DNA of 64,000 nt from an uncultured Acidobacteriota bacterium. Its GTDB lineage: Bacteria; Acidobacteriota; UBA6911; RPQK01. Where the stretch lies: contig CAYQYP010000204.1 in the NCBI GenBank assembly GCA_964421755.1, positions 9,746-73,745 of the forward strand, written 5' to 3'. Positions 26,471 to 64,000 of this stretch are shown here, piece by piece. The notes below the pieces were generated by a model, which was not told the origin of the DNA, searched no databases, and worked only from the letters and a program-made list of their open reading frames with translations. How positions within the stretch are numbered: the stretch's first letter is position 1; each line of letters starts with the position of its first letter. The position numbers were made by a program, and so were the translations under genes.

Positions 26471-27787
26471 ATGCGAGAAGACTATCTCCCGTTCGCTTTA
26501 CCGGATTTGGGCTCCGAGGAACTGGAGCAGGTCACCGAGACGCTCCAGTCGGGTTGGATCACAACTGGACCAAAAGTTCGCGAGTTCGAGACTAGGTTCG
26601 CCGCATACGTCGGTGCGAAGCATGCGGTGGCGGTCAATAGCTGCACTGCTGCTTTGCACCTGGCGCTCGAGGCGGCTGGTGTCAAGCGCAATGACCTGGT
26701 TATCACGACTCCCTACACGTTTGCAGCTACCGCCGAGGTTATTTACTACCTGGGGGCGATTCCAGTCTTCGTGGATGTCGACGCAGAAACCCTCAACATC
26801 GATGTGACCCGTTTGAGGGAGACGTTGCGCCAGCTGGAAATCAGCCGTATTGCACGAGTACCGGCGACGTCCGTCGCAATCCGCAAGGCTCTTCACAAGC
26901 GAAGTGGACGGACAGAGAAACCTGCGAGCAAGAGAGCGGGGAAACGGAGATTGAAAGCGGTGGTGCCGGTGCACATGGCTGGCTATCCGTGCGACATGGA
27001 CGAGATAAATCGAATGGCTTCCACGTTTGGTTTGGCGGTCGTCGAAGACGCGGCGCACGCATTCCCCACGTCCTATCGCGGCCGCCGAATCGGCGGGTTT
27101 CAGACAGAGACAAGTCGAAACGCCGCCTGTTTTTCGTTTTATGCCACGAAGCCCATTACGACCGGCGAAGGTGGAATGGTGACAACAAACGATGACCAGT
27201 TGGCGGAGCGGTATCGCGTCATGCGGCTTCACGGCATAAGCAAGGACGCCTGGAAGCGTTATTCGGTCGAGGGCAGTTGGTACTACGAGATTCAGGCACC
27301 AGGTTTCAAGTACAACATGCCCGATCTCGCCGCTGCGGTCGGCCTCGCTCAGCTGTCCAAAGCGGAGCGCATCTGGACGCGAAGAGCGGAGATGGCGGCG
27401 GCTTACAACGACGCCTTTGCGAATTATGAGGAACTGCAGGTGCCGACAGCGGCCCCCGAGATCCAACACTCCTGGCACTTGTATGTTTTGCGATTGAACC
27501 TTGATTTGCTCTCTATAGACCGGGATGCGTTCATTACGGAATTGAAGCGGCGCCGAATCTGTACCAGCGTTCATTTCATCCCCCTTCACCTGCATCCTTT
27601 CTATCGCTCCGAATACGGATACGAACCCGAGGATTTCCCGGTCGCCTACGCCGAATTCAAACGAGAAGTGTCGCTGCCGATCTACACAAAGATGACGGGC
27701 CGGGATGTAAACGACGTCGTGACGGCGGTTACCGAAGTCGTCCGGCGATTCAGCAGAAAGGCTGTTTATGCGGTGGCTGGATTTTAG
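26471..27787 (+). CDS. DegT/DnrJ/EryC1 aminotransferase (PglE/WbpE-like sugar aminotransferase) carrying an unusual ~40 aa basic insertion.
   Basis: AGGTGG Shine-Dalgarno. N-terminus MREDYLPFALPDLGSEELEQVTETLQSGWITTGPKVREFE. FYATKPITTGEGG (PLP-lysine). An insertion ARVPATSVAIRKALHKRSGRTEKPASKRAGKRRLKA lies between conserved blocks. Confidence 0.9.
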   Translation: MREDYLPFALPDLGSEELEQVTETLQSGWITTGPKVREFETRFAAYVGAKHAVAVNSCTAALHLALEAAGVKRNDLVITTPYTFAATAEVIYYLGAIPVFVDVDAETLNIDVTRLRETLRQLEISRIARVPATSVAIRKALHKRSGRTEKPASKRAGKRRLKAVVPVHMAGYPCDMDEINRMASTFGLAVVEDAAHAFPTSYRGRRIGGFQTETSRNAACFSFYATKPITTGEGGMVTTNDDQLAERYRVMRLHGISKDAWKRYSVEGSWYYEIQAPGFKYNMPDLAAAVGLAQLSKAERIWTRRAEMAAAYNDAFANYEELQVPTAAPEIQHSWHLYVLRLNLDLLSIDRDAFITELKRRRICTSVHFIPLHLHPFYRSEYGYEPEDFPVAYAEFKREVSLPIYTKMTGRDVNDVVTAVTEVVRRFSRKAVYAVAGF

Positions 27788-28442
27788 CGTTGCTGTTTTG
27801 GGCCTGCTTTTTTTGAGTCCGCTTCTGCTGGTTTTGGCATGCCTCGTTAAGTTGACCTCTCCCGGTCCGGTGTTTTACAGGCCTCTGCGAGTCGGTCAAG
27901 GCGGGCGGCTGTTCAGACTCAACAAGTTCCGAACCATGGTTCCGGATGCTGAGCGTCTGGGCCCCGGGATCACCGGTCATCGTGACGCGCGAGTCACAGG
28001 GGTGGGCAGGTGGCTTCGCAGGTGGAAGTTGGACGAGCTCCCGCAACTTCTTAATGTCCTGGCCGGAGAAATGGCGCTTGTAGGCCCCAGACCCGAAGAC
28101 CCTAGATACGTTGAATATTACCGGCCGGAGCACGCTGCTGTCCTGTCCGTACGGCCCGGGATAACCGGGGCGGCGAGTCTCGTCTACAGGAATGAGGAAG
28201 AAGCCCTCACGACCCGTAATTGGGAGCAGGAATACATAGCGCGTCTTCTTCCCGCAAAGCTTTTGATCGAGCTGGAGTACCTCGGTCGACGGAACGCTTG
28301 GACGGACCTGAAGCTGGTCTTTGAAACGCTGGGAGCAATTCAAGCTGCCCCCGGCTCTACGAGGAAGAAAGCGCAACCAGTCCACCCCCGTCTGGCGCCG
28401 TCCGACCGGGAGAAAAGGGCGTCATTGGCCGACCGGATATAA
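27768..28442 (+). CDS. Small PglC/WbaP-C-like phosphoglycosyl (sugar-1-phosphate) transferase, the initiating enzyme.
   Basis: Single N-terminal transmembrane helix VAVLGLLFLSPLLLVLACLV. Followed by PGPVFYRPLRVGQGGRLFRLNKFRTM...DELPQLLNVLAGEMALVGPRP, the bacterial sugar transferase signature. It overlaps the upstream gene by 20 nt. Confidence 0.85.
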   Translation: MRWLDFSVAVLGLLFLSPLLLVLACLVKLTSPGPVFYRPLRVGQGGRLFRLNKFRTMVPDAERLGPGITGHRDARVTGVGRWLRRWKLDELPQLLNVLAGEMALVGPRPEDPRYVEYYRPEHAAVLSVRPGITGAASLVYRNEEEALTTRNWEQEYIARLLPAKLLIELEYLGRRNAWTDLKLVFETLGAIQAAPGSTRKKAQPVHPRLAPSDREKRASLADRI

Positions 28443-28467
28443 GCATCAAACAACGCGAGGAGTCACT

Positions 28468-30582
28468 ATGTCGGGCCTGATGAGGCGTCAGGATTCAGTT
28501 CAGGATCAATCGGACGACTCGATCTGGATCGATCAGTTCCTGGAGGAGAAGGACGTCGATTTACTCCGCTACCTGCGGATCATGTGGAAGAGAAAGTGGC
28601 TCGTATCGGCGGTCCTTGCGACAGTAGTGGGAATCGCTGCGCTCTGGACTTTCAGCGCGACGCCGCTTTACCGATCAAGCGTGAAGATTCAGATTGATCC
28701 GGAGGAGAAAGTTCTCCCCTATCAGCAGGTTCTTGACCTCGTCACTAATCCGCGTCATCTGCAGACCCAGACCGAAATTCTGACCAGCCGGATGCTAAGT
28801 GAGCGCGTCAGCCGCGCTCTTCAAAGCAAGGATGGGGTCACTCGGCCCCCGTTCATCGGTTCCTATTTGAAGGTTGATGTCGTCCCAAACACCCAAGTTG
28901 TAAAGGTCAGCTACACGTCAGAGGACCCGACATTTTCGGCGGATGCGGCCAACCTCGTGGCTGAGGAGTACATCCGCTACAACTTCGAGAGCAGGTACAA
29001 CGCGACACTCGAGGCTCGCAACTTTCTTCAACGCGAGCTGTTTGAGGTGAAAAAGAAACTGGAAAAGTCAGAGGAGGAGCTCGCGCGCTATTCCGAATCA
29101 CACGACCTCCACACTGTTTCCGAAGAGGACAATGCTGTAGTTCAGAAGCTGTTTGCGCTTAATAAGGAGCTGACCGAAGTCGAGCAGCGGTTACGGGCCA
29201 ACCGTTACGACGACATTCGGAATTCGACTTCCGCGACCTTCCCGGACAGCTTGAAGAGAGAGACTGTCAAGCAATTGGAGATGCGCCTGTCCGATGCCCG
29301 GCAAAAGCTTGCGGCCTTGTCCGTTGAATTTGGCCCAAATTGGCCCGAGGTAAAGCAGTTGCGGCAGGATATCGCCAACCTGGAGCGCGATCTGGAGGCG
29401 GAGGTGGAGAAGACAGTGGACCAGCAACGCCTGGAATACCAGCTCGACGAAGAACATCGGCGACGCGTCAACGCTTCGATTGCCGCTCACGAACGTCTCG
29501 TGAACCGACTCCGCTCTGACTTGATCCAGTACAACATCATCAAGCGGGAAGTGGACACCGACAAGGAACTTTATGAGGGCTTGCTCCAAAGACTCAAGGA
29601 AGCCGGAGTCTCCGCAGGGCTGAAATCGAACAACATACGTGTCATCGAACAAGCCAGAATTCCCCAGGTCCCATATTCCCCAAACAAGCTGCTCAATCTC
29701 ATCCTGGCAGTTGTTGCGGGGCTGGTTCTCGGTTTCGGATTGGCGCTGTTCGCCGAGCACGTAGATGCGAGTCTGAATAGTCTGGAAGACGTGGAGCAGT
29801 ACGTTGGTTTGCCCTCCCTGGCTTCGATACCGGTCCTGCGACTAGCGCCGGACAACGACCCACGGTTTATGACGATGGAAGCACTGGAGGCAGTGAGCGC
29901 GAATTCGTTCATCGGCGAGGACGCTGGACAGCAGGAGAGCTATCGAGCCCTGAGGACTTCTATTCTCCTTTCCTGCGCCGGAAGGCCGCCTCAGACGATA
30001 TTGGTCACGTCCTCACTTCCCGGGGAAGGCAAGACAACTACAGCCTTGAATCTGAGCGCTTCGCTTGCGCAGACCGGCCGAAGCGCGGTGCTGGTCGAGC
30101 TCGATCTCCGGAGAGGATCCGCCAGCAGGATCCTGAAGCCGGATGGCACCTGCGGTATGAGCGGCTACTTGTCCGGCCACTGCGAACTGGCGGACGTGGT
30201 GGAAAACACTGGAGTGCCGAACCTCTATCTTATGCCGGCCGGCGCCCCACCGCCCAATCCGGCCGAACTTGTCGGTTCAAAAAGGATGGAGCTGGCATTG
30301 GAAACGCTGGCTCGATCCTTTGATTACGTAGTTTTGGATTCTCCGCCGGTACTCAGCTTCACGGATGCGGTCGTGGTATCTACGTTGGTCGACGGCGTCG
30401 TCTTCGTTGTCCAAGGTGGAAAGACCTCCCGAAGCGCCGCGCAGCAGGCCAAGAAGCAGCTGGCCATTGTGGGGGCCCACGTTCTCGGAACGGTCATGAA
30501 CCGAGTGAAAGGCCTTAGTTCGGGCTGCTACGCTTACTACCCGGAACCCGACGCCTACCAGAAAAGGACCTGGCACGGCTAG
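28468..30582 (+). CDS. Wzc-like polysaccharide co-polymerase (PCP-2a) with a C-terminal BY-kinase domain and a Tyr-rich tail.
   Basis: GAGGAG Shine-Dalgarno before the ATG at 28468. Transmembrane helix, Wzz/GumC region, long coiled coil, second transmembrane helix. Walker A SSLPGEGKTTTALNLSASLA. Walker B VVLDSPPV. C-terminal CYAYYPEPDAY. Confidence 0.85.
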   Translation: MSGLMRRQDSVQDQSDDSIWIDQFLEEKDVDLLRYLRIMWKRKWLVSAVLATVVGIAALWTFSATPLYRSSVKIQIDPEEKVLPYQQVLDLVTNPRHLQTQTEILTSRMLSERVSRALQSKDGVTRPPFIGSYLKVDVVPNTQVVKVSYTSEDPTFSADAANLVAEEYIRYNFESRYNATLEARNFLQRELFEVKKKLEKSEEELARYSESHDLHTVSEEDNAVVQKLFALNKELTEVEQRLRANRYDDIRNSTSATFPDSLKRETVKQLEMRLSDARQKLAALSVEFGPNWPEVKQLRQDIANLERDLEAEVEKTVDQQRLEYQLDEEHRRRVNASIAAHERLVNRLRSDLIQYNIIKREVDTDKELYEGLLQRLKEAGVSAGLKSNNIRVIEQARIPQVPYSPNKLLNLILAVVAGLVLGFGLALFAEHVDASLNSLEDVEQYVGLPSLASIPVLRLAPDNDPRFMTMEALEAVSANSFIGEDAGQQESYRALRTSILLSCAGRPPQTILVTSSLPGEGKTTTALNLSASLAQTGRSAVLVELDLRRGSASRILKPDGTCGMSGYLSGHCELADVVENTGVPNLYLMPAGAPPPNPAELVGSKRMELALETLARSFDYVVLDSPPVLSFTDAVVVSTLVDGVVFVVQGGKTSRSAAQQAKKQLAIVGAHVLGTVMNRVKGLSSGCYAYYPEPDAYQKRTWHG

Positions 30583-30629: not shown

Positions 30630-32588
30630 ATGAGTCAGGCAGACGGTACCGCACTCCAGCATCTCGCCACTGAAACAACTTTCGATCGGCTCATCAAGGT
30701 GAGCCAGAAACTGCTGTTCCGGCGTGTCAGTCAGGTGGCGTTGGATGCCCTCGTCGTCGCCAGCGCTCTTTTTACTGCTTACCTGGTCCGATTTGACGGT
30801 GAGATCCCTGCGGACCACTACTCGCAGGTTCTGAGGCTGCTTGCCGTAACCCCGGTCCTGTACTTGGCAACGAGCTCCGTCGTGGGAGTTTACGGTCAGG
30901 TGTGGAGATACACCTGCTTGAGAGATATCCAATGCCTCGTTCTGTCAGTCGGCTGCAGTTCCCTGGTGGTTCTGGTCGTCCGAATAGCTGAACATCCGAT
31001 TGGTGGAACAGGTCTGCCGTTGGGCGTTGTGCTCCTCCAACCGATCCTGACGTGCGGAGGTTGGGTGGGCTGCAGGCTGTTACGACGGGTCATGTATCAC
31101 CGGACGGTTCCTAGTGATGTCGGACGGCGGGGTCTTATGGCCCGGCGACGGATGGTCCTTGTTGGGGCCGGGCAGGCAGGAGTGTACCTGGTTCGGGAGT
31201 TCCTGAAAGCGAAGCAGTCCGATCTTGTAGGGTTCCTGGATGACAATCCCGAGCTCCACGGCAGGAGGATCGAAGGACTGAAGGTACTGGGCAGCACTCG
31301 TGATTTGGAGAAGGTCGTCGCCCGGGAGAGGATAGGTGAAGTGGTCCTCAGCATGCCGAGCACCGCCCGCTCCGTCACTCTTTCCCTTGCTGACCGGTGC
31401 CGAAAGGCGGGAGTAAGAGTTTCGACGGTTCCATCCGTTACCGAAATACTTTCAGGCGAACTCGGCATAACCGAGATCCGCCCCGTCCAGATGGAGGATC
31501 TACTCGGACGATGCAGCGTCGACTGTTACGCCCCCCCTGAGTTCCTCAAGACCTATCGGGGCAAACGCATTATGGTGACCGGCGCGGGGGGATCGATCGG
31601 ATCGGAGCTGGTCAGACAACTGAGGAGGCTGGAACCCTCGTCATTGATCTTGCTCGACAAGGACGAAAACAGCCTCTACGAAACTGTCTTGGAGATTCAA
31701 GAAGATTTCGACAATGTGGCCGAGATCATCGCGGACATCAAGGATCAGGCGCGACTCAACAAGCTGTTTGGCGAGCTGATGCCACAGATCGTCTTTCACG
31801 CCGCCGCCTACAAGCATGTTCCACTCATGGAAACATGCCCGGCGCAGGCGGTTCAAAACAATGTCATCGGGACGCGCAACGTGGTGGCTGCAGCCGATCG
31901 CTTTGGCGTCGAGCGCTTCGTTCTGATCTCAACGGATAAGGCCGTGAACCCGTCGAGTGTCATGGGGGCGTCCAAACGAGTTGCTGAAATGATTGTCCAA
32001 GGCAGCGCCGCCCGCGACCGGCGTTACTGCAGCGTCCGGTTCGGCAACGTTCTGGGTAGTCGAGCGAGCGTTGTGCCTCTTTTTCAGAAGCGGATCAGAC
32101 AAGGCAAGACCATCCCGGTCACGCATCCCGATGTGGAGCGTTACTTCATGACGATTCCGGAAGCTGTCCACCTCGTCATCCAGGCCGGCTCTATAGGGCA
32201 AGGGGGCGAGATCTTCATGCTGGACATGGGAAAACCGGTCAAGATTATGGAGCTCGCCCGGAATCTGATCCGTCTGTCCGGCCTGGAGCCCGAAAAGGAC
32301 GTCCAGATCCAGATAACCGGAATGAGGGCGGGGGAGAAGCTCTATGAGCAGTTGATGGTCGACGGACAGGACACCATCTCCTCGACCAGACATCCGAAGA
32401 TTTTTGTGGTGCACGCGGCGTCTCCGGATCCCTTCCTGGTTCAGCAGCACTTGCGCCGGCTCGAAAAAGCTGCCGCCGACGACGACGATGCAGAGATCAG
32501 GAGACTCTTCGGCGGCCTCCGGATTGGGTACAAACCGCCCTCTCGCAGGGCTTACGGCAAGACGGCAGCATCTCTCCGGTTTAACTGA
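30630..32588 (+). CDS. CapD/WbpM/PglF-like membrane-anchored NDP-sugar 4,6-dehydratase (polysaccharide biosynthesis protein CapD).
   Basis: Four N-terminal transmembrane helices. Rossmann motif VTGAGGSIGSEL. Further motifs ISTDKAVNPSSVMGASKRVAE, RFGNVLGSRASVVPLF. Confidence 0.9.
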   Translation: MSQADGTALQHLATETTFDRLIKVSQKLLFRRVSQVALDALVVASALFTAYLVRFDGEIPADHYSQVLRLLAVTPVLYLATSSVVGVYGQVWRYTCLRDIQCLVLSVGCSSLVVLVVRIAEHPIGGTGLPLGVVLLQPILTCGGWVGCRLLRRVMYHRTVPSDVGRRGLMARRRMVLVGAGQAGVYLVREFLKAKQSDLVGFLDDNPELHGRRIEGLKVLGSTRDLEKVVARERIGEVVLSMPSTARSVTLSLADRCRKAGVRVSTVPSVTEILSGELGITEIRPVQMEDLLGRCSVDCYAPPEFLKTYRGKRIMVTGAGGSIGSELVRQLRRLEPSSLILLDKDENSLYETVLEIQEDFDNVAEIIADIKDQARLNKLFGELMPQIVFHAAAYKHVPLMETCPAQAVQNNVIGTRNVVAAADRFGVERFVLISTDKAVNPSSVMGASKRVAEMIVQGSAARDRRYCSVRFGNVLGSRASVVPLFQKRIRQGKTIPVTHPDVERYFMTIPEAVHLVIQAGSIGQGGEIFMLDMGKPVKIMELARNLIRLSGLEPEKDVQIQITGMRAGEKLYEQLMVDGQDTISSTRHPKIFVVHAASPDPFLVQQHLRRLEKAAADDDDAEIRRLFGGLRIGYKPPSRRAYGKTAASLRFN

Positions 32589-35716: not shown

Positions 35717-35734
35717 CAGGTTGGAGGTGGTCTC

Positions 35735-47559: not shown

Positions 47560-47579
47560 CCCTCAAGGATCTGACAGAC

Positions 47580-49981: not shown

Positions 49982-50028
49982 AACCGCCGGTTTTTAGTGT
50001 CAAACCGCCGTCAGGAGGAATTAACCAG

Positions 50029-56842: not shown

Positions 56843-58142
56843 AGGTTACCAGTCTGCGGCGGTTCTGCGAAGACCACCGCTGGAGATGGGAGCGCCAGGC
56901 GACCGAAGGCGCGGGCGTTTGCGAATCGGAATCCCCCCCGCCATTGCCGAGTACGGCTTTTACCTGTCTATCGCATACGCAACTCTTGGCGAAGCCGTCG
57001 GAGTCGCCCTGGTCCCCGGTTTCGGCGCCTTGGTCATGGCGGTCATCTGCGCAGTCTGCCTCAAGAGCGTGGGATTGCGTGGTGTTCCTATTTTCCTGCC
57101 CATCACGTTTCTGGTCGCGTTCGCGTGCTGCTTCGTGATTCTGCAGGTGTTTGTGCACAACGAGGGAGTTCTCGCTTCCGGAGTCCGATCCTATATACCC
57201 TGGATCTTTACCCTCGTGACCGCACAAGCCCTGGTGTTGCGCAAAGGCTTCCTCGGTCGTTTTGCGATCTGCTGTGCGGCAGTCGGCTTCGTGGGGCTTT
57301 GCTTCATGAAGAGCTGGACAGACGAGGGCCGGATCGGGTTGGAAGAGGGGGTAGCTTTTGCGAACCCGAACGATTTGGCTCGCTGGTTTGGGTTCGTAGC
57401 GATCTACTTTGGGGTGACGGCAATCGAAACAAAGAAAAACTGGGGTCGCGTGCTCGGGTGGGGCGTCGTCGGTCTCTGTTTTCTCGTTATCGGGATGACT
57501 GTCAGCCGAGGCACCCTGGTTGCCGCCGCAATCGCCCTGCTGGTCGCCTTGCGCCGTCTGATGAAGCGCGGTTTTTCCCAGCTTTTAGCATTGCTCCTGG
57601 TCATTGGCCTGGCGTGGGGTCTTGGTCTCTTCGACTCGGCGATTTCAGCGTATACCGAAAGGGGTCTGACGTCCTCGGGCCGGCTCGAAGTGCTCCCACG
57701 TGCCTGGGAACGTTTTCAGGAACGGGCGTTCGTCGGGTATGGGATGTCCAACGTCGCGACGTTTGTACCTCTGCGCGGGGACTTCAAAACTCCACACAAC
57801 GCTTTTCTGGCGATCGGACTCGCCGGGGGGCTTGTTTCTCTCTGCCTTTTCTTTCTGCAGTTCCTGTTTACTGGATGGCAGCTGATCCGTTGGCGGGCGA
57901 CACGCGTGGCCGATGCTCCTTTCTTCCTGCCTCTCTCGGTCTATGTTTTTCTCGCTCTGTTTCTTAGCAACGGGTCATTTATGAGCCCGTACATCGCGGC
58001 AACGATTTCAGCGGTGTCATTGCCCTTCGTCTTCCACTATCTTCAGAAGAACCTACGGCGGAGGATGATCCGAGCCCGCCGGCTGCACCTTCTGTCGGAC
58101 AAGGTCAATCTCCGGGGACAACGGAGACAATGCGCAAATTAG
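56829..58142 (+). CDS. Wzy_C-family membrane protein (O-antigen ligase/polymerase-like, ~10 transmembrane helices).
   Basis: Multi-transmembrane protein with a periplasmic loop containing RG...L and HNAFLAIGLAGGLV, typical of the Wzy_C/WaaL family. The start may be the downstream ATG (~56886). Confidence 0.7.
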   Translation: MWLREGYQSAAVLRRPPLEMGAPGDRRRGRLRIGIPPAIAEYGFYLSIAYATLGEAVGVALVPGFGALVMAVICAVCLKSVGLRGVPIFLPITFLVAFACCFVILQVFVHNEGVLASGVRSYIPWIFTLVTAQALVLRKGFLGRFAICCAAVGFVGLCFMKSWTDEGRIGLEEGVAFANPNDLARWFGFVAIYFGVTAIETKKNWGRVLGWGVVGLCFLVIGMTVSRGTLVAAAIALLVALRRLMKRGFSQLLALLLVIGLAWGLGLFDSAISAYTERGLTSSGRLEVLPRAWERFQERAFVGYGMSNVATFVPLRGDFKTPHNAFLAIGLAGGLVSLCLFFLQFLFTGWQLIRWRATRVADAPFFLPLSVYVFLALFLSNGSFMSPYIAATISAVSLPFVFHYLQKNLRRRMIRARRLHLLSDKVNLRGQRRQCAN

Positions 58143-59400
58143 TCGGCGCGGTTAGCGTGTTTAGCGGCGCGTCCATCGGAGTCGCCGACGTGGAGTACTC
58201 ATGCGCCCCAACATCGTTGCTCGTTCCTTGTGGGCGAGACGTCTTGAAATGATCGTAAATGACTTCAGGGATACTGCTCACCGCGTTGATGGCGGAGCTG
58301 CCGGACGACAAGCGAAGATCGAATTTTTGAGGATCGACGAATTTAGGGTCGACGGTAATATTGCCGCTGAAGACTCCAGTCGCCGAATTCTGAATGTTGC
58401 GCGTGTTTCCGTATGCGATATTGTTTTTGATTTCCGCCGAACCCGTTTTTACCCAGATGCCGTAAGCACACTTATACGCGGTGTTATGGTAGACCTTCTG
58501 CTCGCCGTAAGTAGTGATGCCCCACTTGTCAGACCAGATGAAGTTATTGTAGGCAATGTTGCCGCCGCCGCCCGAGAGGACGATGCCACCTCCGGAGCCA
58601 CCGAGCCTGGCGTTGCTGTAGAACCTGTTATTCCTGACCGTGTTGCCCGTTGCGAACTGTCCAGTCTTCGAGTTATACACCTGGATCCCGTACGCGGCGT
58701 TGCTGTAGAACCTGTTGCCTTCGATCAGATTGTAGCTGGTCTCGACGTACAACCCATGATCAAGGTCCTTCCTTTGCCCATTGCCATAGATCATGCAGTC
58801 AACGACTTCGTTGTAATCCGCCGATCCGGTGGTCGTTCCACTCCAAGTCAGGTGGATGCCCTGGTGACCCGCCGTCCTGATGACGAGCCGCTGAAGGCGG
58901 ATGCGACTGGCGCCTCCCCCGATCCGAACGTTCGCGTCGGTTGCACCCTCGCACGTCAAATCCTTGATAATGACGTACTTGATTCTGTTGACTTTCAAAT
59001 TCCAGACGTTGGGCGCGTTGACCGGTTTCATAATAACGGTTTCGCCCGCGTAGCCGCTGATCGTGACAGGACTAGACCAGCTTGTGCCGGCAGGGAATGA
59101 GATCTGATCGCTACTGACGTACTCGGCGTATGTGCCCCCTCTGATGAATAAGGTATCTCCGGCTCTAAGAACGCTGACACCCTTCTTGATTGTTTTGAAC
59201 GGCAGCGACGATGTCCCTGGGTTCGCGTCGTTTCCGTTCGATTTGGCGGTGTAGTAAGTCGTCCCCAGAAGTGCTGTGGAAGACAGACATACAAACACGG
59301 CCGCGGAGCTCAGGCAGTTAAAAATCCATTTCAATTCAAACACCTCCAGACGCGGCGTATTCTCCTGTGCCTCATCGATTGCACCTGTGACACTCATCAC
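58105..59400 (-). CDS. Secreted right-handed parallel beta-helix (pectate-lyase fold, PbH1 repeats) protein, a candidate EPS lyase, hydrolase or C5-epimerase. It is the only minus-strand gene inside the cluster.
   Basis: Signal/transmembrane WIFNCLSSAAVFVCLSSTALLG. Repeated beta-helix turns ...IEGNRFYSNAAYGIQVYN...VRNNRFYSNARLGG...IAYNNFIWSDKWGIT... Confidence 0.7.
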   Translation of the reverse strand: MMSVTGAIDEAQENTPRLEVFELKWIFNCLSSAAVFVCLSSTALLGTTYYTAKSNGNDANPGTSSLPFKTIKKGVSVLRAGDTLFIRGGTYAEYVSSDQISFPAGTSWSSPVTISGYAGETVIMKPVNAPNVWNLKVNRIKYVIIKDLTCEGATDANVRIGGGASRIRLQRLVIRTAGHQGIHLTWSGTTTGSADYNEVVDCMIYGNGQRKDLDHGLYVETSYNLIEGNRFYSNAAYGIQVYNSKTGQFATGNTVRNNRFYSNARLGGSGGGIVLSGGGGNIAYNNFIWSDKWGITTYGEQKVYHNTAYKCAYGIWVKTGSAEIKNNIAYGNTRNIQNSATGVFSGNITVDPKFVDPQKFDLRLSSGSSAINAVSSIPEVIYDHFKTSRPQGTSNDVGAHEYSTSATPMDAPLNTLTAPTNLRIVSVVPGD

Positions 59401-59445: not shown

Positions 59446-61545
59446 ATGCGTGTTCTTGCCGTCACGAATCTATACCCCTCTGCTCGCAATCCAGTTTCGG
59501 GAACATTCGTTTTTGAACAAGTCCGCGGTCTTTGTCAAGCAGCAGTTGAAATCACGACGCTTGAGGTGGACCGACTCGGCGAAGGGATATCGGCCTATTT
59601 AGGGGTGGGGCGCAAAGTCAAGGACGCCGTGCGGGATCACCGCCCGGATCTGGTTCACGTCATGTACGGGGGGGTCCTTGCGGACCTGGTCACCCGGGCG
59701 GTCCGTGATCGCCCCGTGGTGGTCACTTTTCGCGGGTCGGACCTCTACGGCGAACCTTTTTCGCCTATCAGGGAGAGAATCATGGCCGCCTACGGAGTCA
59801 TTGCTTCACGTCAGGCCGCCCGGCGCGCAACTGGGGTCATAACCGTTTCACGAAGGCTCTCAGAAAAACTGCCGAAGGATGTTCCGAGGAGCAAGGTACG
59901 GGTCATCCCTTCCGGAGTGGACCTGAAGGTATTCCAACCTATGCCGAAGTCCGAGTGTCAGACCACGCTCGGCTGGAACTCTCGGCACTTCAACGTCCTC
60001 TTCCCCGCCAACGGCGAAAGACCCGTCAAGCGTTCGCATCTGACGGCTGCCGCAGTCGAACTGACGAGGGAAACAGGGATACCGGCGGAACTGCATCGCC
60101 TGACCGGAGTTTCCTTTTCCGAAGTTCCCGTCTGGATGAATGCGTCGGACGTGTTGATCCTCACCTCGTGGCATGAAGGATCGCCCAATGTTGTAAAAGA
60201 AGCGCTCGCCTGCAATCTCCCGATCGTATCGGTGGATGTCGGGGATGTCGAAGAGCGGATACACGGCGTTTCCGGTTGCTACATTGCTGAACCGGTCGCG
60301 AAGGATCTGGCGGCTAAACTATCCCTGGTCTTTAGGGGACAGAGAGTTATCGCAGGGCGCGAGAAAGTCGGAGCTTTGTCCCTTGAAACGACCGCCGAAG
60401 AGTTGAAAAGCTTCTACGCGCAACTTCTCGACTCCTTCAGCCGGTCAACGACGCCCGCCAGACGAATCGAAGTTCAGAGCTTCCGCGCCACGGATGAACG
60501 TGAGTCAAATTGCGCAAACGGGAACGGCCTCTTACTCTCGGTTCTGGTCCCGTGCTATCGGGAAGCACAGACGATCGAGAGGTGCATCCGCTCGATTCTG
60601 GCGCAAGAAATCCCCAACGGGTCCTTGGAAATCATCGTTGCAGATGGAATGTCGGACGATGGAACCCGGGGGGTGCTCCAGCGATTAGCCGCTGAGGATC
60701 CCCGGGTTCGAGTCGTCGACAATCCTCAAGGCATCGTGTCAACCGGCCTGAACCTGGCGCTGGCAGTTGCGCGAGGCAGGTTCATTGCCCGGATGGACGC
60801 ACACACGCGCTATGCGCCGGATTACCTTGCCCAGTGCCTCGCCACCATGGAGAAGACTGGGGCCGACAACGTAGGGGGACCGGTCCGCGCGGAAGCGGAG
60901 GGGTACCTGGCCAGGGCAATCGCCGCATCTTTTCATTCTCCTGTGGCTGTGGGCGGCTCAAAGTCCCACGACCTGAACTACGAGGGACCACTCGACAGCG
61001 TCTGGTACGGCTGCTGGCGGCGCGAGGTTTTTGAGAGGGTCGGTCTCTTCGACGAAAGACTCGTCCGCAATCAGGACGACGAGTTCAACCTCCGGCTGAG
61101 AGACGCGGGGGGAGTCGTGTGGCAATCACCGCGCATCAAGGCCTGGTACAGCTCGCGGGCGTCTCTGGGCGCCCTCTTCCGCCAGTACAGTCAATATGGC
61201 TACTGGAAAGTCAAGGTAATCCAAAAGCACAGGAAAGTGGCGTCATGGAGGCACCTGATACCTGGCGCCTTCGTCCTCTCGCTCATTTCGCTGCTTCCGC
61301 TCGCGCCGTTTTTCCCCCGAGTTCTCGAGTTCCTGATTTTCGAGCTCGTCCTTTACTTCTTCGCGTGCCTTCTCGGCGGTTTCATCGCTGCGCGGCAGAA
61401 AGGGATAACTCTCCTCCCGATCCTGCCCGGGGTGATCTGCACTTGCCACGTTGCCTACGGCCTCGGCTTCCTTTTTGGCGTGTGGGACTTCCTGCTTGCA
61501 GGCGCCAGCCAGCCAACCCGAAGTTTCACGGCCGTGTCCAGGTAG
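59446..61545 (+). CDS. Dual-domain glycosyltransferase: N-terminal GT4 (GT-B) fused to C-terminal GT2 (GT-A) plus C-terminal transmembrane helices.
   Basis: AAGGAG Shine-Dalgarno 6 nt before the ATG at 59446. MRVLAVTNLYPS...GT4 with ILTSWHEGSPNVVKEALACNLPIVS. Then LLSVLVPCYREAQTIERCIRSILAQEIPNGSLEIIVADGMSDDGT (GT2). Three to four C-terminal transmembrane helices. Confidence 0.8.
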   Translation: MRVLAVTNLYPSARNPVSGTFVFEQVRGLCQAAVEITTLEVDRLGEGISAYLGVGRKVKDAVRDHRPDLVHVMYGGVLADLVTRAVRDRPVVVTFRGSDLYGEPFSPIRERIMAAYGVIASRQAARRATGVITVSRRLSEKLPKDVPRSKVRVIPSGVDLKVFQPMPKSECQTTLGWNSRHFNVLFPANGERPVKRSHLTAAAVELTRETGIPAELHRLTGVSFSEVPVWMNASDVLILTSWHEGSPNVVKEALACNLPIVSVDVGDVEERIHGVSGCYIAEPVAKDLAAKLSLVFRGQRVIAGREKVGALSLETTAEELKSFYAQLLDSFSRSTTPARRIEVQSFRATDERESNCANGNGLLLSVLVPCYREAQTIERCIRSILAQEIPNGSLEIIVADGMSDDGTRGVLQRLAAEDPRVRVVDNPQGIVSTGLNLALAVARGRFIARMDAHTRYAPDYLAQCLATMEKTGADNVGGPVRAEAEGYLARAIAASFHSPVAVGGSKSHDLNYEGPLDSVWYGCWRREVFERVGLFDERLVRNQDDEFNLRLRDAGGVVWQSPRIKAWYSSRASLGALFRQYSQYGYWKVKVIQKHRKVASWRHLIPGAFVLSLISLLPLAPFFPRVLEFLIFELVLYFFACLLGGFIAARQKGITLLPILPGVICTCHVAYGLGFLFGVWDFLLAGASQPTRSFTAVSR

Positions 61546-61560: not shown

Positions 61561-62703
61561 ATGAGCACGAACAAACCCTCGCTTCTTTACGTCGTGGGAC
61601 AGTTGGCCGGTGGCGGAATGGAACGGCAACTATACTATCTGTTGTCTCGCCTTGCTGCTAACCGCTACCGAACAGCTGTGTTGGTCTGGAGCACGTTTCC
61701 CAGGGATGCCTACCTTCAGAGAATCCGAAGGCTGGGAGTACCGGTCGAAATCCTGCCACCCGGATTACGACGAGCGGAGAAGTTAAGGGCGTCGCGTACC
61801 CTGGTCGACGTGCTCCAGCCTGATGTCGTCCATTCCTTTTCTTTCTACACCAACTTTGCTGCGTGGTGGGCTTCTTTGAACACTCGAACCCTGCCGATCG
61901 GCTCAATCCGAAGCGAGCAGGCTTACGCGCGAAGACGGGCAGGCCGGTTTCTGGGGATTGTGAACTCTTACCTCCCTCGTTTTCAAATTACAAACAGCCG
62001 TGCTGGCGAAAAACAGACTCGTGGAAGCCGGTCGGTATTCCTTCCCAGGCGCGTCGTCCTGGTGCCGAACGCACTCGACGTCACACAATTCAGTCTGCCG
62101 ACCGCGGACGGTTATCCTTTTCATATAGTCGGAATAGGCTCCCTCTATCGGGTGAAAAGGTGGGACAGGCTCCTCCGGTTAGCTTCCGAGCTGAAAGGGA
62201 GGGGGTATTCCTTCTTCGTCACAGTGGCCGGTGAAGGGCCGCTCAGAGATCAGCTCGTTGCCCAAGCCAGGAGTCTTGGTGTCGGGCACTTGGTCCAATT
62301 TCCCGGATATGTGGAAGACATCGCTGGCCTGCTGGCTCGCGCGACCCTCGTGGTCCACACCTCCGAGAGCGAAGGCTGTCCGAACGCTCTAATGGAGGCT
62401 ATGGCGGCCGGCCGGGCAGTGGTGGCGACTGACGTTGGTGACGTGCGCAACCTGATTGAAGACGGAGAAAGCGGCTTTGTGGTCGAAAACACTGAGGTGA
62501 GCGGGCTGGTGGACCGAGTCTCAAAGCTGCTGAGCGATTCCCGCTTGCGCACATCAATGGGACACAGGGCCAGGCAGAAAGCAGAAGCCTGTTTCGGCGT
62601 CGACCGTCTCGCTGATGACATGCTGGCCGCCTACCGGCTGGCTGGTCTGGGAAACCGGAATTCAAAACCAGAAGTGGACAATTTGTGCGTGGTCGAGAAG
62701 TGA
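61561..62703 (+). CDS. Family 4 glycosyltransferase.
   Basis: C-terminal LVVHTSESEGCPNALMEAMAAGRAVVATDVGD. Confidence 0.8.
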   Translation: MSTNKPSLLYVVGQLAGGGMERQLYYLLSRLAANRYRTAVLVWSTFPRDAYLQRIRRLGVPVEILPPGLRRAEKLRASRTLVDVLQPDVVHSFSFYTNFAAWWASLNTRTLPIGSIRSEQAYARRRAGRFLGIVNSYLPRFQITNSRAGEKQTRGSRSVFLPRRVVLVPNALDVTQFSLPTADGYPFHIVGIGSLYRVKRWDRLLRLASELKGRGYSFFVTVAGEGPLRDQLVAQARSLGVGHLVQFPGYVEDIAGLLARATLVVHTSESEGCPNALMEAMAAGRAVVATDVGDVRNLIEDGESGFVVENTEVSGLVDRVSKLLSDSRLRTSMGHRARQKAEACFGVDRLADDMLAAYRLAGLGNRNSKPEVDNLCVVEK

Positions 62704-64000
62704 GACCCGGGTTGCTGGTGTGGCTGCTCGGTGTTTCCGCCTGGCTATCGTGGGCGCCTTTCGAATGGAACGAGGCGAAGCTCCGATTTCAGCTGCTCCC
62801 GGCACTGAATCAAGAGCTCATCGCCCACTTCTTCTTGCTGGTTCCATTTGCGGTCGGCTTGTCTGCAATGAGGGCGGTTCGCGTCCAGCCGCTGTCTCGT
62901 CCTCTGCTTCAATCGAGCGAAAGACGGGATCGCACCCTGGGTCAAGACGCAGCAGTACTAGCCCTCATGGCCACCTTTCTCGAAGTCGGTCAACTCTTTG
63001 TCCACAGTCGCTCGGTGTCGCCGGTTGACTGGCTTGCCACTTTGGGGGGAGCCGTCGTTGCGGCAGCGGTCACCCGAAAGATTTTGAAAGAAGCGCCTCG
63101 AGACCTCCCCGCACTGCTCGTTGTGGTTCTCATGACGGGACTGGCTTGTACAAGTTTTTTCTGGGCGATTCTTCCGAGCCGGGGGCTTCAGCTGGAATCC
63201 TGGAACCCCGATTTTTCGGTGGTGACAGGCGACGAACTCGGCGGGGGACGTCGTTACCTGGGAACCGTGTCAAGTCCCGCCATTCGAGTGGGACACGAAT
63301 CGAACAACGTGGTTCTGGTGCCTGGCGCATCCCGGGAAGACCGCTATCGCGCGGTTGGCCTCGCGGAGCGAACTCAGTCTGTCACCCTGCAGGCTCACTT
63401 GCTGTCCTTCTCGGATACACAGCGGGGACCAGCCCGGATCGTCACTTTCTCGCAGGGGCATTTTGTCAGAAACGCAACGCTGGCCCAGGAAAAAAGAGAC
63501 CTCGTACTTCGACTGCGCACCAGCAGAGGGGGCAAGAATGGAGCCAGCTTTGAATTCATTCTGCGCGAAGCCGTTCAGGCCGGAAAGCCTACTTGGGTCT
63601 CCGCCGAATTCCGCCGAGGCGTGGTGACTATGCGTTCCGAGAGCGCGGCCGGTATCGTGTCGGGGACCTTTCGCCCGGATTTCCTGCGCGTTTCTCTCAA
63701 GATCCGCGGAGAGAACTTTCCGAAGCTGCACCCGGCCTTTTCGGGGAGAGGGACTCTGGTTCAGATCTTGCTGGCTCTGGCCGGTGTCGGGTACCTGCTC
63801 GGCTGCAAATGGCCTCGCCGCGCAGTCCCGGCGCTGCTCGGCGCCCTCGCTCTGACAGTCGGGCTGACCGGTCTCGTGGACGTCATTCTGTTGCGGATCC
63901 CGCTTCCCGGTGCGTCTGATCTTGCCCTCCTGTCGACTGCAACGGTGGTGGGGGTGGCGCTCACACGAATCGATCGTGCATGGGCAGTAAGAGTCCCGCA
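62699..64000 (+). CDS. VanZ-like membrane domain protein with an extended C-terminal region. The gene is partial and runs off the window end.
   Basis: GTG start overlapping the upstream stop. Hand-translated frame VRPGLLVWLLGVSAWLSWAPF...LIAHFFLLVPFAVGL...LEVGQLFVHSRSVSPVDWLATLGGAVVAAAV has a VanZ-like helix pattern. No in-frame stop was seen to 64000. Absent from the ORF track, presumably because it is incomplete. Confidence 0.45.

What the first reader, a model, noticed from the sequence alone, without database searches (positions are those of the whole stretch)
26471..64000. 37-kb polysaccharide cluster mixing Wzc (PCP-2a/BY-kinase) and Wzy_C components with a Wzm/Wzt ABC exporter; no Wzx in view
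Nearly all genes are co-oriented, and many junctions show ATGA/GTGA stop-start overlaps (translational coupling). The cluster has three parts. The first is a PglE/PglC/PglF-like trio (DegT, small phosphoglycosyl transferase, CapD dehydratase) implying a 4-amino-4,6-dideoxy-HexNAc-type initiating sugar. The second is a Wzc-like kinase co-polymerase and a Wzy_C membrane protein. The third is an ABC-2 exporter pair whose ATPase has a Wzt-like C-terminal extension. No MOP-family flippase is present in the window. This hybrid of Wzy-pathway and ABC-pathway parts suggests an ABC-dependent polymer, assembled by multidomain glycosyltransferases, that is ligated by a WaaL-like Wzy_C protein and length-controlled by the Wzc-like PCP. 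Alternatively it could be two interleaved polymers.
Basis: partly seen in the sequence, partly recalled or inferred. Interest (0 to 1): 0.6.

Follow-up and report, generated by a model that had tools for sequence, protein, structure and literature searches.

The report
ABC exporter wired to Wzc/Wza machinery
This is most of a ~48-kb sugar-polymer gene cluster from an uncultured Acidobacterium that has no Wzx flippase and places an O-antigen-type ABC exporter in the same operon as a capsule-type Wzc kinase. The same pairing recurs in many unrelated environmental bacteria, which suggests a polysaccharide export route I did not find described.

Summary
Window 26471-64000 holds 31 genes, 30 on the + strand, and 7 junctions have 4-nt start/stop overlaps. 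Pfam, NCBIfam and PDB searches confirm these components:
- an aminotransferase, a small phosphoglycosyl transferase (PGT) and a PglF-like dehydratase
- a full PCP-2a tyrosine-kinase Wzc
- Wzt, with a carbohydrate-binding C-terminal domain homologous to that of A. aeolicus Wzt, plus Wzm
- a Wzy_C protein
- no MOP flippase

An identical metagenome contig extends the cluster to about window-equivalent 74.2 kb. The extra stretch adds a Wza-like OPX, a second Wzy_C, a TPR/CBM protein and sulfation genes, and still no Wzx. A related MAG (80-87% amino-acid identity) keeps the same arrangement.

The key new result comes from Wzt-centred metagenome loci. Of 27 loci with at least 10 kb of context, 8 carry a same-strand PCP-2a. 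These are often contiguous Wza-Wzc-Wzm-Wzt cassettes, some with no Wzx or Wzy in view. The Wzc proteins in these cassettes are only 19-37% identical to each other.

I therefore favour one ABC-dependent polymer handed to Wzc/OPX (confidence 0.5) over two juxtaposed polymers (0.3). The WaaL role and length control by Wzc remain untested. I rate it a new variant of a known kind, of moderate to high interest.

The parts
24514..25929 (+). Two tandem AraC-family regulators (24514-25239 and 25354-25929). They mark the 5' edge of the cluster.
   Evidence: Pfam HTH_18/HTH_AraC. The same pair precedes the syntenic cluster in the related MAG (L003).
26471..27787 (+). Sugar 4-aminotransferase (DegT family, ArnB/PseC-like).
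   Evidence: Pfam DegT 419 bits. NCBIfam PseC 381 bits, below its cutoff. Best PDB match is ArnB at 295 bits.
27768..28442 (+). Small monotopic phosphoglycosyl transferase (initiating enzyme). It overlaps DegT by 20 nt.
   Evidence: Pfam Bac_transf 181 bits. One N-terminal hydrophobic helix. PDB hits to the WbaP catalytic domain (80 bits) and PglC (72 bits).
28468..30582 (+). Wzc-like PCP-2a co-polymerase with a C-terminal BY-kinase domain.
   Evidence: Pfam Wzz+GNVR+AAA_31. NCBIfam TIGR01007 160.7 bits, above its cutoff of 108. Walker A/A'/B motifs and a Tyr-rich tail. ATG at 28468 with a GAGGAG ribosome-binding site.
30630..32588 (+). Membrane-anchored PglF/CapD-type UDP-GlcNAc 4,6-dehydratase.
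   Evidence: Pfam CoA_binding_3+Polysacc_synt_2 372 bits. Best PDB match is C. jejuni PglF (5BJU) at 261 bits. Three N-terminal TM segments.
32607..33902 (+). Wzt ABC ATPase with a C-terminal carbohydrate-binding domain. It starts 18 nt after CapD.
   Evidence: Pfam ABC_tran plus Wzt_C at 24.7 bits. Residues 58-408 align to full-length A. aeolicus Wzt 7K2T/8DKU. The family profile scores 315.7 bits on full-length Wzt versus 277.9 bits on the NBD-only chain. The C-terminal domain is conserved in 27 homologues.
33912..34784 (+). Wzm ABC-2 permease. It starts 9 nt after Wzt.
   Evidence: Pfam ABC2_membrane 63.6 bits. NCBIfam Wzm/RfbD and KpsM hits, both below cutoff. Six TM segments.
34901..40790 (+). 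CDP-hexose / branched deoxy-sugar block. Members: NTP-transferase-like 34901-35716; glucose-1-phosphate cytidylyltransferase 35735-36577; SDR epimerase/dehydratase 36574-37674; NDP-hexose C-methyltransferase 37671-38927; RmlC-type 3,5-epimerase 38924-39490; DUF4910/DUF2172/HTH_47 protein 39477-40790.
   Evidence: Pfam. NCBIfam TIGR02623 362 bits and TIGR01221 178 bits, both above their cutoffs. 4-nt overlaps link these genes.
40817..49427 (+). GT and tailoring block. Members: GT61 40817-42034; flavin amine-oxidase-like 42035-43345; GT2 43364-44650; metallo-beta-lactamase fold 44640-45437; two proteins with no family 45434-46534 and 46534-47559; NodU-like carbamoyltransferase 47580-49427.
   Evidence: Pfam. 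Relaxed Pfam finds nothing for the two unknowns. NCBIfam NodU 141 bits, far below its cutoff.
49436..56842 (+). Second GT block. Members: 181-aa membrane protein 49436-49981; 372-aa protein with a weak SGNH/GDSL hit 50029-51147; GT2 51144-52181; GT4 52153-53307; GT4-like 53304-54800; DUF2334 54797-55741; GT4 55742-56842.
   Evidence: Pfam. TM counts.
56829..58142 (+). Wzy_C-family polytopic protein #1 (ligase or polymerase). This is the variable class.
   Evidence: Pfam Wzy_C 43.3 bits, above the gathering score. 8-11 TM segments. No PDB sequence hit. 72% identical to the relative's copy, otherwise no close match.
58105..59400 (-). Right-handed beta-helix protein (candidate polysaccharide lyase/hydrolase) with an N-terminal signal-like helix. 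It is the only minus-strand gene in the cluster.
   Evidence: Pfam Beta_helix 53 bits, plus DUF1565 and Pel9A-like. Conserved in position and strand in the relative. The + ORF at 58201-59100 has no family and is a shadow ORF.
59446..61545 (+). GT4+GT2 fusion with about 3 C-terminal TM helices.
   Evidence: Pfam. TM count. The relative has a stand-alone 359-aa GT2 at this position.
61561..62703 (+). GT4 glycosyltransferase.
   Evidence: Pfam Glycos_transf_1 115 bits.
62685..64000 (+). 5' part of a 605-aa membrane protein that runs off the window end (it ends at window-equivalent 64502).

Beyond the window, read from L005 (window coordinate = L005 + 54642):
- Wza-like OPX, about 64529-65521.
- 227-aa protein.
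- Wzy_C #2, about 66260-67555.
- TPR/CBM_4_9 protein.
- Sulfotransferase.
- PAPS synthase.
- Epimerase.
- GFO/IDH oxidoreductase, ending at about 74215.
   Evidence: L001, L002 and L005 are identical or nearly identical to the window where they overlap. Gene and Pfam tables. Weak VanZ hit, 18.8 bits. Wzy_C #2 scores 68.9 bits.

Best explanation
The region is the first three quarters of a ~48-kb locus. I propose it makes one Und-PP-linked polysaccharide by an ABC-transporter-dependent route and secretes it through capsule-type Wzc/OPX machinery.

Proposed steps:
1. The PglF-like dehydratase and the 4-aminotransferase make a UDP-4-amino-4,6-dideoxy-HexNAc-type sugar. The small PGT puts it on undecaprenyl phosphate. 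(The families are shown; the sugar identity is inferred.)
2. Eight cytoplasmic glycosyltransferases extend the chain, using among other donors a CDP-activated, C-methylated deoxy-sugar. Tailoring such as carbamoylation, and sulfation by genes beyond the window, modifies the chain or caps it. (Inferred.)
3. The carbohydrate-binding domain of Wzt recognises the finished chain, and Wzm/Wzt moves it across the inner membrane. (The domain homology is shown; the function is inferred from E. coli O9a and A. aeolicus WzmWzt.)
4. Instead of the PCP-3 protein used by Kps-type capsules, the PCP-2a tyrosine-kinase Wzc and the Wza-like OPX form the periplasm and outer-membrane conduit. (Inferred from the recurrent operon linkage.)
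5. The Wzy_C-family proteins act in the periplasm on the Und-PP-linked glycan. They could transfer it to its final acceptor or join exported blocks. (Open.)
For: 1. Operon linkage in the window: DegT-PGT-Wzc-CapD-Wzt-Wzm form one tight run, with gaps of -20, 25, 47, 18 and 9 nt.
2. No MOP flippase in the whole ~48-kb cluster. None in the syntenic cluster of a MAG with 80-87% identical proteins.
3. Independent recurrence:
   - L013 has Wza-Wzc-CBM-CpsB-Wzy_C-Wzm-Wzt.
   - Among Wzt-centred metagenome loci, 8 of 27 with at least 10 kb of context (8 of 19 with at least 15 kb) carry a same-strand Wzc.
   - L025 and L092 are contiguous Wza-Wzc-Wzm-Wzt. L027 is TPR/CBM-Wzy_C-Wza-Wzc-Wzm-Wzt. L082 is Wzc-Wzm-x-Wzt.
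   - These Wzc proteins are full PCP-2a and only 19-37% identical to each other, so the linkage is old and broad.
4. In L025 and L092 no Wzx- or Wzy-like polytopic ORF lies in the 17-19 kb available. Wzt is followed by a rhamnosyl-O-methyltransferase-like gene and GTs, the classical ABC O-polysaccharide layout.
5. The Wza/Wzy_C/TPR module occurs with a Wzx in another genome (L008). This suggests that Wzx and Wzm/Wzt are alternative inner-membrane steps for the same export machinery.
6. The Wzt C-terminal domain is homologous to that of A. aeolicus Wzt.
Against: - In this locus the OPX lies about 34 kb from Wzc, and the cluster is very large (9 GT domains, two Wzy_C proteins). That would also fit two polymers.
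- Other close Wzt relatives sit in plain Wzm/Wzt loci with no PCP or OPX within 10 kb (L004 and L014). A Wzc relative sits in DegT-PGT-Wzc-Wza-CapD with no ABC genes in view (L012). The two modules can therefore work apart.
- A Wzx could be encoded elsewhere in the genome, which I could not read.
- No Wzb/CpsB phosphatase was found in the cluster.
- The metagenome sample is 80 loci out of more than 544 candidates, with no taxonomy and only +-10 kb of context.
- The canonical literature pairs PCP-2a with Wzy pathways and PCP-3 with ABC pathways (PMC12220298).
- Nothing here is experimental.
Confidence: 0.5

Rival explanations
1. Two polymers are encoded side by side. One is a Wzx/Wzy-dependent exopolysaccharide (PGT, Wzc, OPX, one Wzy_C as polymerase, with Wzx encoded elsewhere). 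The other is an ABC-dependent O-antigen-like glycan (Wzm/Wzt, capping and tailoring genes, the other Wzy_C as WaaL ligase). The two gene sets are interleaved in one co-transcribed super-locus.
For: - Wzt relatives occur in self-contained Wzm/Wzt loci (L004 and L014).
- Wzc relatives occur with Wza, and sometimes Wzx, without ABC genes (L008 and L012).
- Two divergent Wzy_C proteins are present.
- There are 9 GT domains and two sugar-precursor sets.
- Adjacency of Wzy-type capsule loci and ABC-type O-antigen loci is known in Vibrio cholerae NRT36S (PMC1847822) and, from my own knowledge, in Klebsiella and E. coli O8/O9.
Against: - No Wzx in ~48 kb in two genomes.
- Wzt/Wzm sit inside the initiation/Wzc operon, not next to a separate one.
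- There is only one initiating transferase in the cluster.
- Contiguous Wza-Wzc-Wzm-Wzt cassettes without any Wzx or Wzy occur in other organisms.
Confidence: 0.3
2. This is a Wzy-type pathway in which Wzm/Wzt has replaced Wzx. The ABC exporter flips Und-PP-linked repeat units or short blocks. A Wzy_C protein polymerises them in the periplasm, and Wzc/OPX control length and export.
For: - The Wza/Wzy_C/TPR module occurs with Wzx in L008 and with Wzm/Wzt in L013, L027 and this locus.
- A Wzy_C gene is adjacent to Wza-Wzc-Wzm-Wzt in L013, L019, L027 and L039.
- From my own knowledge, the ABC flippase PglK and Wzx are interchangeable in E. coli.
Against: - In characterised systems the Wzt carbohydrate-binding domain recognises the capped end of a finished chain (knowledge of E. 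coli O9a and K. pneumoniae O12).
- L025 and L092 have the cassette but no Wzy_C in view.
- Type V ABC exporters are known to move long polymers, not repeat units.
Confidence: 0.12
3. This is a general protein O-glycosylation system. The PglF/aminotransferase/PGT genes build a bacillosamine-like primer, and a Wzy_C protein acts as a PglL-type oligosaccharyltransferase.
For: - PglF-like dehydratase and a small PGT that hits PglC.
- The Wzy_C family includes PglL/PilO (own knowledge).
- Weak hit of Wzy_C #1 to the 'putative O-glycosylation ligase' family TIGR03097 (22.7 bits against a cutoff of 188).
Against: - The presence of PCP-2a, OPX, a Wzt carbohydrate-binding domain and 9 GT domains points to a long secreted polymer.
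- No PglD-type acetyltransferase was found.
- The TIGR03097 hit is far below its cutoff.
Confidence: 0.05

Closest known systems
ABC-transporter-dependent O-polysaccharide export by Wzm/Wzt with a carbohydrate-binding Wzt domain (E. coli O9a, K. pneumoniae O12, Aquifex aeolicus WzmWzt; PDB 7K2T and 8DKU)
   Same: - ABC-2 permease plus an ATPase with a homologous C-terminal domain.
- Cytoplasmic GTs.
- A Wzy_C-family candidate ligase.
- Methyl/carbamoyl-type tailoring genes next to the transporter, here and in relatives.
   Different: - The transporter genes sit in one operon with a PCP-2a tyrosine kinase, and an OPX belongs to the cluster. Classical O-polysaccharide systems need neither.
- Initiation is by a small PGT rather than WecA.
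- The gene order is Wzt then Wzm, unlike the Wzm-then-Wzt order seen in the other loci whose gene order I read.
Wzx/Wzy-dependent group 1 capsule / colanic acid system (E. coli Wza-Wzb-Wzc)
   Same: - PCP-2a with Walker A/A'/B motifs and a Tyr-rich tail.
- OPX with Poly_export+SLBB.
- PGT initiation.
- A Wzy_C-family membrane protein.
   Different: - No Wzx in ~48 kb.
- No Wzb/CpsB phosphatase found.
- Wzm/Wzt is present.
- The OPX has no lipobox cysteine in its signal peptide.
Group 2/3 capsule export (KpsMT-KpsE-KpsD)
   Same: The overall logic I propose is the same: an ABC exporter hands a finished polymer to a PCP/OPX envelope-spanning conduit.
   Different: - The PCP is PCP-2a with a kinase, not PCP-3.
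- The OPX is short (330 aa) with no GfcC domain detected.
- No KpsC/KpsS (Capsule_synth) genes.
- Und-PP/PGT initiation instead of a lyso-PG-poly-Kdo primer.
- The KpsM family hit is only 51.7 bits against a cutoff of 300.
Campylobacter Pgl initiation enzymes (PglF, PglE, PglC)
   Same: PglF is the best solved-structure match of the dehydratase (261 bits). A small monotopic PGT and a sugar 4-aminotransferase are adjacent to it.
   Different: - The aminotransferase is closer to ArnB/PseC.
- The PGT matches WbaP and PglC about equally well, slightly favouring WbaP.
- No PglD acetyltransferase, PglK or PglB.
XrtA/PEP-CTERM-associated and Methylobacillus Eps-type loci (EpsE/F/G, PEP_O_lig_1, TPR lipoprotein)
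   Same: A Wza-like OPX, PCP plus kinase, an O-antigen-ligase-like protein and a TPR protein occur as a module.
   Different: All NCBIfam hits to these families are below their cutoffs. No exosortase lies in this cluster, although an exosortase fragment lies next to Wzc in L095.

Membership tests
Wzx/Wzy-dependent pathway | MOP-family flippase (Wzx) in the locus | tested here: not met
   No PF01943, PF13440, PF14667 or PF03023 hit in any ORF of window 1-64000, or in the 11.5 kb beyond it, or in the relative's cluster. No unassigned polytopic ORF. The rest of the genome could not be read.
Wzx/Wzy-dependent pathway | PCP-2a with tyrosine autokinase | tested here: met
   Wzz+GNVR+AAA_31. TIGR01007 above cutoff. 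Walker motifs and a Tyr-rich tail.
Wzx/Wzy-dependent pathway | Wzy polymerase | tested here: inconclusive
   Two Wzy_C-family proteins (43.3 and 68.9 bits). The family does not separate polymerases from ligases. No PDB sequence match for #1.
Wzx/Wzy-dependent pathway | OPX outer-membrane exporter | tested here: met
   A 330-aa Poly_export+SLBB protein lies 1.8 kb beyond the window end on contigs identical to the window.
Wzx/Wzy-dependent pathway | Cognate tyrosine phosphatase (Wzb or CpsB) | tested here: not met
   No LMW-PTP or CpsB_CapC hit in the cluster. CpsB is present in L008 and L013.
ABC-dependent O-polysaccharide pathway (Wzm/Wzt) | ABC-2 permease plus Wzt-type ATPase | tested here: met
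   Pfam. Best PDB matches are A. aeolicus Wzt, TarH/TagH and mycobacterial Wzt.
ABC-dependent O-polysaccharide pathway (Wzm/Wzt) | C-terminal carbohydrate-binding domain on Wzt | tested here: met
   Pfam Wzt_C is only 24.7 bits, below the gathering score of 30.4. The alignment runs through the domain of 7K2T/8DKU. The family profile gains about 38 bits on the full-length chain over the NBD-only chain. Binding specificity was not tested.
ABC-dependent O-polysaccharide pathway (Wzm/Wzt) | Chain-terminating cap enzyme and WaaL ligation to lipid A-core | not testable with these tools
   The candidates (carbamoyltransferase 47580-49427 and the Wzy_C proteins) are family-level assignments only.
Group 2/3 capsule (Kps) system | PCP-3 (KpsE), KpsD-type OPX with GfcC domain, KpsC/KpsS linker enzymes | tested here: not met
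   The PCP carries a kinase domain. The OPX has only Poly_export+SLBB. No Capsule_synth hits in any ORF.
Pgl-type bacillosamine initiation | PglF dehydratase, PglE aminotransferase, PglD acetyltransferase, PglC transferase | tested here: inconclusive
   PglF-like: met. The aminotransferase is present but closest to ArnB/PseC. The small PGT hits both PglC and WbaP. No acetyltransferase was found in the cluster.
XrtA/PEP-CTERM-associated EPS system | Family-specific PCP, kinase, OPX and ligase models, plus an exosortase | tested here: not met
   TIGR03007, TIGR03018, TIGR03027 and TIGR03097 all score below their cutoffs. No exosortase in the cluster.

The most novel reading that the evidence does not exclude
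Wzm/Wzt(CBD)-PCP-2a-OPX is a distinct and widespread polysaccharide secretion architecture. In it an O-antigen-type ABC exporter, not Wzx/Wzy, feeds a tyrosine-kinase Wzc/Wza conduit. Wzx and Wzm/Wzt would then be interchangeable front ends for the same envelope-spanning machine. This breaks the textbook pairing of PCP-2a with Wzy pathways and PCP-3 with ABC pathways.
Probability: 0.4. Interest if true: 0.75.

Novelty: new variant of a known kind. Interest (0 to 1): 0.62.

Why it matters
Bacterial polysaccharide export is taught as three separate schemes, with Wzc-type kinase co-polymerases belonging to the Wzx/Wzy scheme (PMC12220298).

If an O-antigen-type ABC exporter really docks to Wzc/Wza, several things follow:
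- The inner-membrane step and the envelope conduit would be modular.
- The role of Wzc phosphorylation would have to be explained without a Wzy polymerase.
- Pathway-calling tools that assign loci by marker genes would mislabel a sizeable share of environmental loci. In my small sample, roughly 30% of this Wzt subfamily with enough context carried a same-strand Wzc.

It also points to a sulfated, carbamoylated, C-methyl-sugar polymer in Acidobacteria, a phylum whose exopolysaccharides matter for soil aggregation.

Tried and rejected
- Genome-contig scan with Wzc: returned a single 29%-identical locus (L010, Pseudacidobacterium MAG), so it gave no taxonomy or synteny.
- Promoter/terminator scans across 25-64 kb: at chance level (2 promoter-like sites against 6.3 expected; 22 terminator-like sites against 19-21). 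They say nothing about operon boundaries.
- Base composition: no step at the ABC block (GC 0.54-0.60 throughout), so no sign of a recent insertion.
- Wzy_C #1: no PDB sequence match. I did not fold it, because only a single-sequence model was allowed and ligase and polymerase share a fold.
It shows no ABC genes in the 14.5 kb returned.
- The 12-TM ORF between Wzc and Wzm in L019: no Pfam, NCBIfam or PDB match, so it can be called neither Wzx nor excluded as one.
- Other polytopic ORFs in cassette loci: these turned out to be Acyl_transf_3 acyltransferases, an exosortase fragment or Wzy_C.
[quoted passage not shown] None described a PCP-2a-Wzm-Wzt cassette. The library is incomplete, so this is absence of evidence only.
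- The + ORF at 58201-59100: rejected as a shadow of the beta-helix gene.

Full report
**1. What is in the window**

Six-frame ORF listing and Pfam scans give 31 genes between 26471 and 64000. Thirty are on the + strand. In order they are:
- DegT aminotransferase (26471-27787)
- a 224-aa Bac_transf phosphoglycosyl transferase, PGT (27768-28442)
- a Wzz+GNVR+P-loop protein (28468-30582)
- a CoA_binding_3+Polysacc_synt_2 dehydratase (30630-32588)
- an ABC ATPase with a C-terminal extension (32607-33902)
- an ABC-2 permease (33912-34784)
- a nucleotide-sugar block (34901-40790)
- GT61, an amine-oxidase-like protein, GT2, a metallo-beta-lactamase-fold protein, two proteins with no family, and a carbamoyltransferase (40817-49427)
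- a small membrane protein, a weak SGNH-like protein, GT2, GT4, a GT4-like protein, DUF2334 and GT4 (49436-56842)
- a Wzy_C protein (56829-58142)
- a beta-helix protein on the minus strand (58105-59400)
- a GT4+GT2 fusion (59446-61545)
- GT4 (61561-62703)
- a membrane protein that runs off the window end (from 62685)

Seven junctions have 4-nt ATGA/GTGA overlaps, and several more overlap or abut. The stretch upstream (1-26 kb) is unrelated except for two AraC regulators at 24.5-25.9 kb. GC content shows no step across the cluster.

**2. Checks on the key calls**

- Wzc-like protein. It reaches the curated cutoff of the tyrosine-autokinase domain model TIGR01007 (160.7 against 108 bits). It has Walker A (PGEGKT), A' (VELDLRR) and B (VVLDSPP) motifs and four tyrosines in its last 20 residues.
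- Dehydratase. Its best solved-structure match is C. jejuni PglF (5BJU, 261 bits).
- PGT. It matches the WbaP catalytic domain and PglC about equally well, slightly favouring WbaP.
- Aminotransferase. It is closest to ArnB and PseC rather than PglE. No PglD-type acetyltransferase was found. A 4-amino-4,6-dideoxy-HexNAc-type primer is therefore plausible but unproven.
- Wzt. The Pfam Wzt_C hit is below the gathering score (24.7 against 30.4 bits). However, residues 58-408 align in one stretch to full-length Aquifex aeolicus Wzt, including its carbohydrate-binding domain. The C-terminal domain is conserved across 27 homologues. A profile of the family scores 315.7 bits on full-length Wzt against 277.9 bits on the NBD-only chain.
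- Sugar genes. 35735-36577 is a glucose-1-phosphate cytidylyltransferase and 38924-39490 an RmlC-type epimerase, both above curated cutoffs. Together with the C-methyltransferase they suggest a CDP-activated branched deoxy-sugar.

**3. The cluster continues beyond the window**

Looking up the last complete protein gave JGI contigs L001 and L002. A Wza homologue search then gave L005. L005 is 100% identical to window 54643-64000 with no gaps, so it can be read as a continuation. After the 605-aa membrane protein come:
- a 330-aa Poly_export+SLBB OPX
- a 227-aa protein with no family
- a second Wzy_C protein (68.9 bits)
- a TPR protein with a weak CBM_4_9 region
- a sulfotransferase
- a bifunctional ATP-sulfurylase/APS kinase
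- an epimerase and a GFO/IDH oxidoreductase
- an unrelated HEAT-repeat gene, which marks the end

The cluster thus spans about 26.5-74.2 kb in window-equivalent coordinates. No gene in it hits a MOP/Wzx family. A six-frame hydropathy scan finds no unassigned polytopic ORF. A MAG with 80% (Wzt), 85% (Wza) and 87% (Wzc) identical proteins has the same order and also no Wzx.

**4. Are the ABC and Wzc parts linked only here?**

Neighbourhoods of more distant homologues gave a mixed but informative picture.
- Some Wzt relatives (52-57% identical) sit in plain Wzm-Wzt plus methyltransferase/carbamoyltransferase plus GT loci (L004 and L014).
- A Wzc relative (42% identical) sits in DegT-PGT-Wzc-Wza-CapD with no ABC genes in view (L012).
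- A Wza relative sits in Wzx-GT-Wzc-Wza-Wzy_C-TPR-CpsB (L008).
- Another Wzt relative at 57% identity sits in Wza-Wzc-CBM_4_9-CpsB-Wzy_C-Wzm-Wzt-methyltransferases...Wzy_C (L013).

I then scanned the metagenome collection with a Wzt alignment, which returned 80 loci. I searched their six-frame ORFs with HMMs built from the homologue lists.
- Of 27 loci with at least 10 kb of flanking sequence, 8 carry a Wzc on the same strand (8 of 19 with at least 15 kb).
- Gene orders: Wza-Wzc-Wzm-Wzt in L025 and L092; TPR/CBM-Wzy_C-Wza-Wzc-Wzm-Wzt in L027; Wzy_C-Wza-Wzc-x-x-12TM-Wzm-Wzt in L019; Wzc-Wza-Wzm-x-x-Wzt in L031; Wza-Wzc-x-x-x-Wzm-Wzt in L065; Wzc-Wzm-x-Wzt in L082.
- Pfam confirms that these are complete PCP-2a proteins. 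The L025 Wzt has a Wzt_C domain above the gathering score.
- The cassette Wzc proteins are only 19-37% identical to one another, so these are not one organism sampled repeatedly.
- Every other polytopic ORF in these loci is a Wzy_C, an Acyl_transf_3 acyltransferase or an exosortase fragment. The one exception is an unassigned 12-TM ORF in L019.
- In L025 and L092 nothing resembling Wzx or Wzy lies in the available 17-19 kb. Wzt is followed by a rhamnosyl-O-methyltransferase-like gene and GTs.

**5. Interpretation**

The tight DegT-PGT-Wzc-CapD-Wzt-Wzm run, the absence of Wzx, and the repeated independent operon linkage of OPX, PCP-2a, Wzm and Wzt make functional coupling the best reading. Under it, a polymer is finished in the cytoplasm on Und-PP, recognised by the Wzt domain, exported by Wzm/Wzt, and passed to Wzc/OPX. 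In this scheme Wzc/OPX take the place of the PCP-3 and KpsD-type OPX of Kps capsules. I put this at 0.5.

The Wza/Wzy_C/TPR module appears with Wzx in L008 and with Wzm/Wzt elsewhere. This hints that the two inner-membrane steps are alternative front ends. The Wzy_C next to Wza (#2) belongs to a conserved class: 42-44% identical to the L008 copy and 26-30% to one L013 copy. The window's Wzy_C (#1) is variable. Which of them, if either, is a ligase cannot be decided from sequence.

The main rival, at 0.3, is two interleaved polymers with a Wzx elsewhere in the genome. It fits the size of the locus and the existence of stand-alone versions of both modules. A Wzx-replacement model (0.12) and protein O-glycosylation (0.05) are less likely.

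**6. Comparison with what is known**

A 2025 review states the canon: PCP-2a goes with Wzy-dependent systems and PCP-3 with ABC-dependent ones (PMC12220298). Related published observations are:
- adjacency of separate capsule and O-antigen loci (PMC1847822, listed)
- OPX surveys that assign a few short OPX proteins to ABC pathways and leave many unassigned because the nearest gene is a PCP (PMC9601211)

I found no description of a PCP-2a-Wzm-Wzt cassette in six searches of an incomplete library. I therefore rate this a new variant of a known kind, not a new kind of system.

**7. Limits**

- All evidence is comparative.
- The genome outside the contig was not readable.
- The metagenome sample was capped and carries no taxonomy.
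- Context is limited to +-10 kb.
- My Wzy and Wzm HMMs were built from few seed sequences.
- The roles of the Wzy_C proteins, the cap chemistry and the sulfation are inferences.

Noticed in passing
L005:14401-17132 (window-equivalent about 69043-71774, beyond the window end): A sulfotransferase (Sulfotransfer_1/3) and a bifunctional ATP-sulfurylase/APS kinase close the cluster, which implies a sulfated polymer in an Acidobacterium. [quoted passage not shown] The related MAG has GT4 genes at this position instead.
   Followed up: partly
window 58105-59400 (- strand): This is the only opposite-strand gene in the cluster. It encodes a secreted-looking right-handed beta-helix protein (Beta_helix, DUF1565, Pel9A-like) and is conserved in place and strand in the relative. 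It is a candidate lyase, hydrolase or epimerase acting on the polymer. The + ORF at 58201-59100 is its shadow.
   Followed up: partly
window 62685-64000, continuing to L001:8249: A 605-aa protein with about 5-7 TM segments, a weak VanZ-like N-terminus (18.8 bits) and a C-terminal CxxC...CxxC stretch followed by a charged tail. It has no family and lies directly upstream of the OPX. The relative has it as two genes (451 + 144 aa).
   Followed up: partly
L005:10936-14183; L008:10001-13571; L027:2162-9027; L013:2235-9100: A recurring module of OPX, a conserved-class Wzy_C and a TPR and/or CBM_4_9 protein. It travels with Wzx in one genome and with Wzm/Wzt in others. In this organism a 227-aa lysine/aspartate-rich secreted protein is inserted after the OPX.
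   Followed up: partly
window 32607-34784: The gene order is Wzt then Wzm here and in the close relative. In the other loci whose gene order I read (L004, L013, L014 and the cassette loci), the permease comes first.
   Followed up: no
window 39477-42034: A DUF4910/DUF2172/HTH_47 aminopeptidase-like protein and a GT61-family glycosyltransferase (from my own knowledge a family best known from eukaryotes) sit inside the sugar block and are conserved in the relative.
   Followed up: no
window 7439-10237: A second sugar-modifying pair (GFO/IDH/MocA oxidoreductase plus a DegT aminotransferase) lies 16 kb upstream of the cluster, next to a PfkB kinase on the opposite strand.
   Followed up: no
window 12592-18615 and 22226-24439 (- strand): A MacB-like permease (889 aa), a caspase-domain protein (Peptidase_C14, 569 aa), a 444-aa protein with no family, and a fusion of a glucuronoyl-esterase-like domain with a GDSL lipase (737 aa).
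   Followed up: no
L019:7390-8886: A 499-aa ORF with 12 TM segments lies between Wzc and Wzm in one cassette locus. It has no Pfam, NCBIfam or PDB match. It could be a very divergent flippase or polymerase.
   Followed up: partly
L095:13855-17307: Exosortase (EpsH) fragments lie directly after the Wzc in one Wzm/Wzt locus, hinting at a link to PEP-CTERM systems in some carriers.
   Followed up: no
L009 (GCA_040961035.1, second contig): The related MAG has a second Wzc-Wza pair next to a radical-SAM/PqqD/Peptidase_C25 set. On the other side lies a minus-strand sugar cluster with its own small PGT, and again no Wzx within 10 kb.
   Followed up: no
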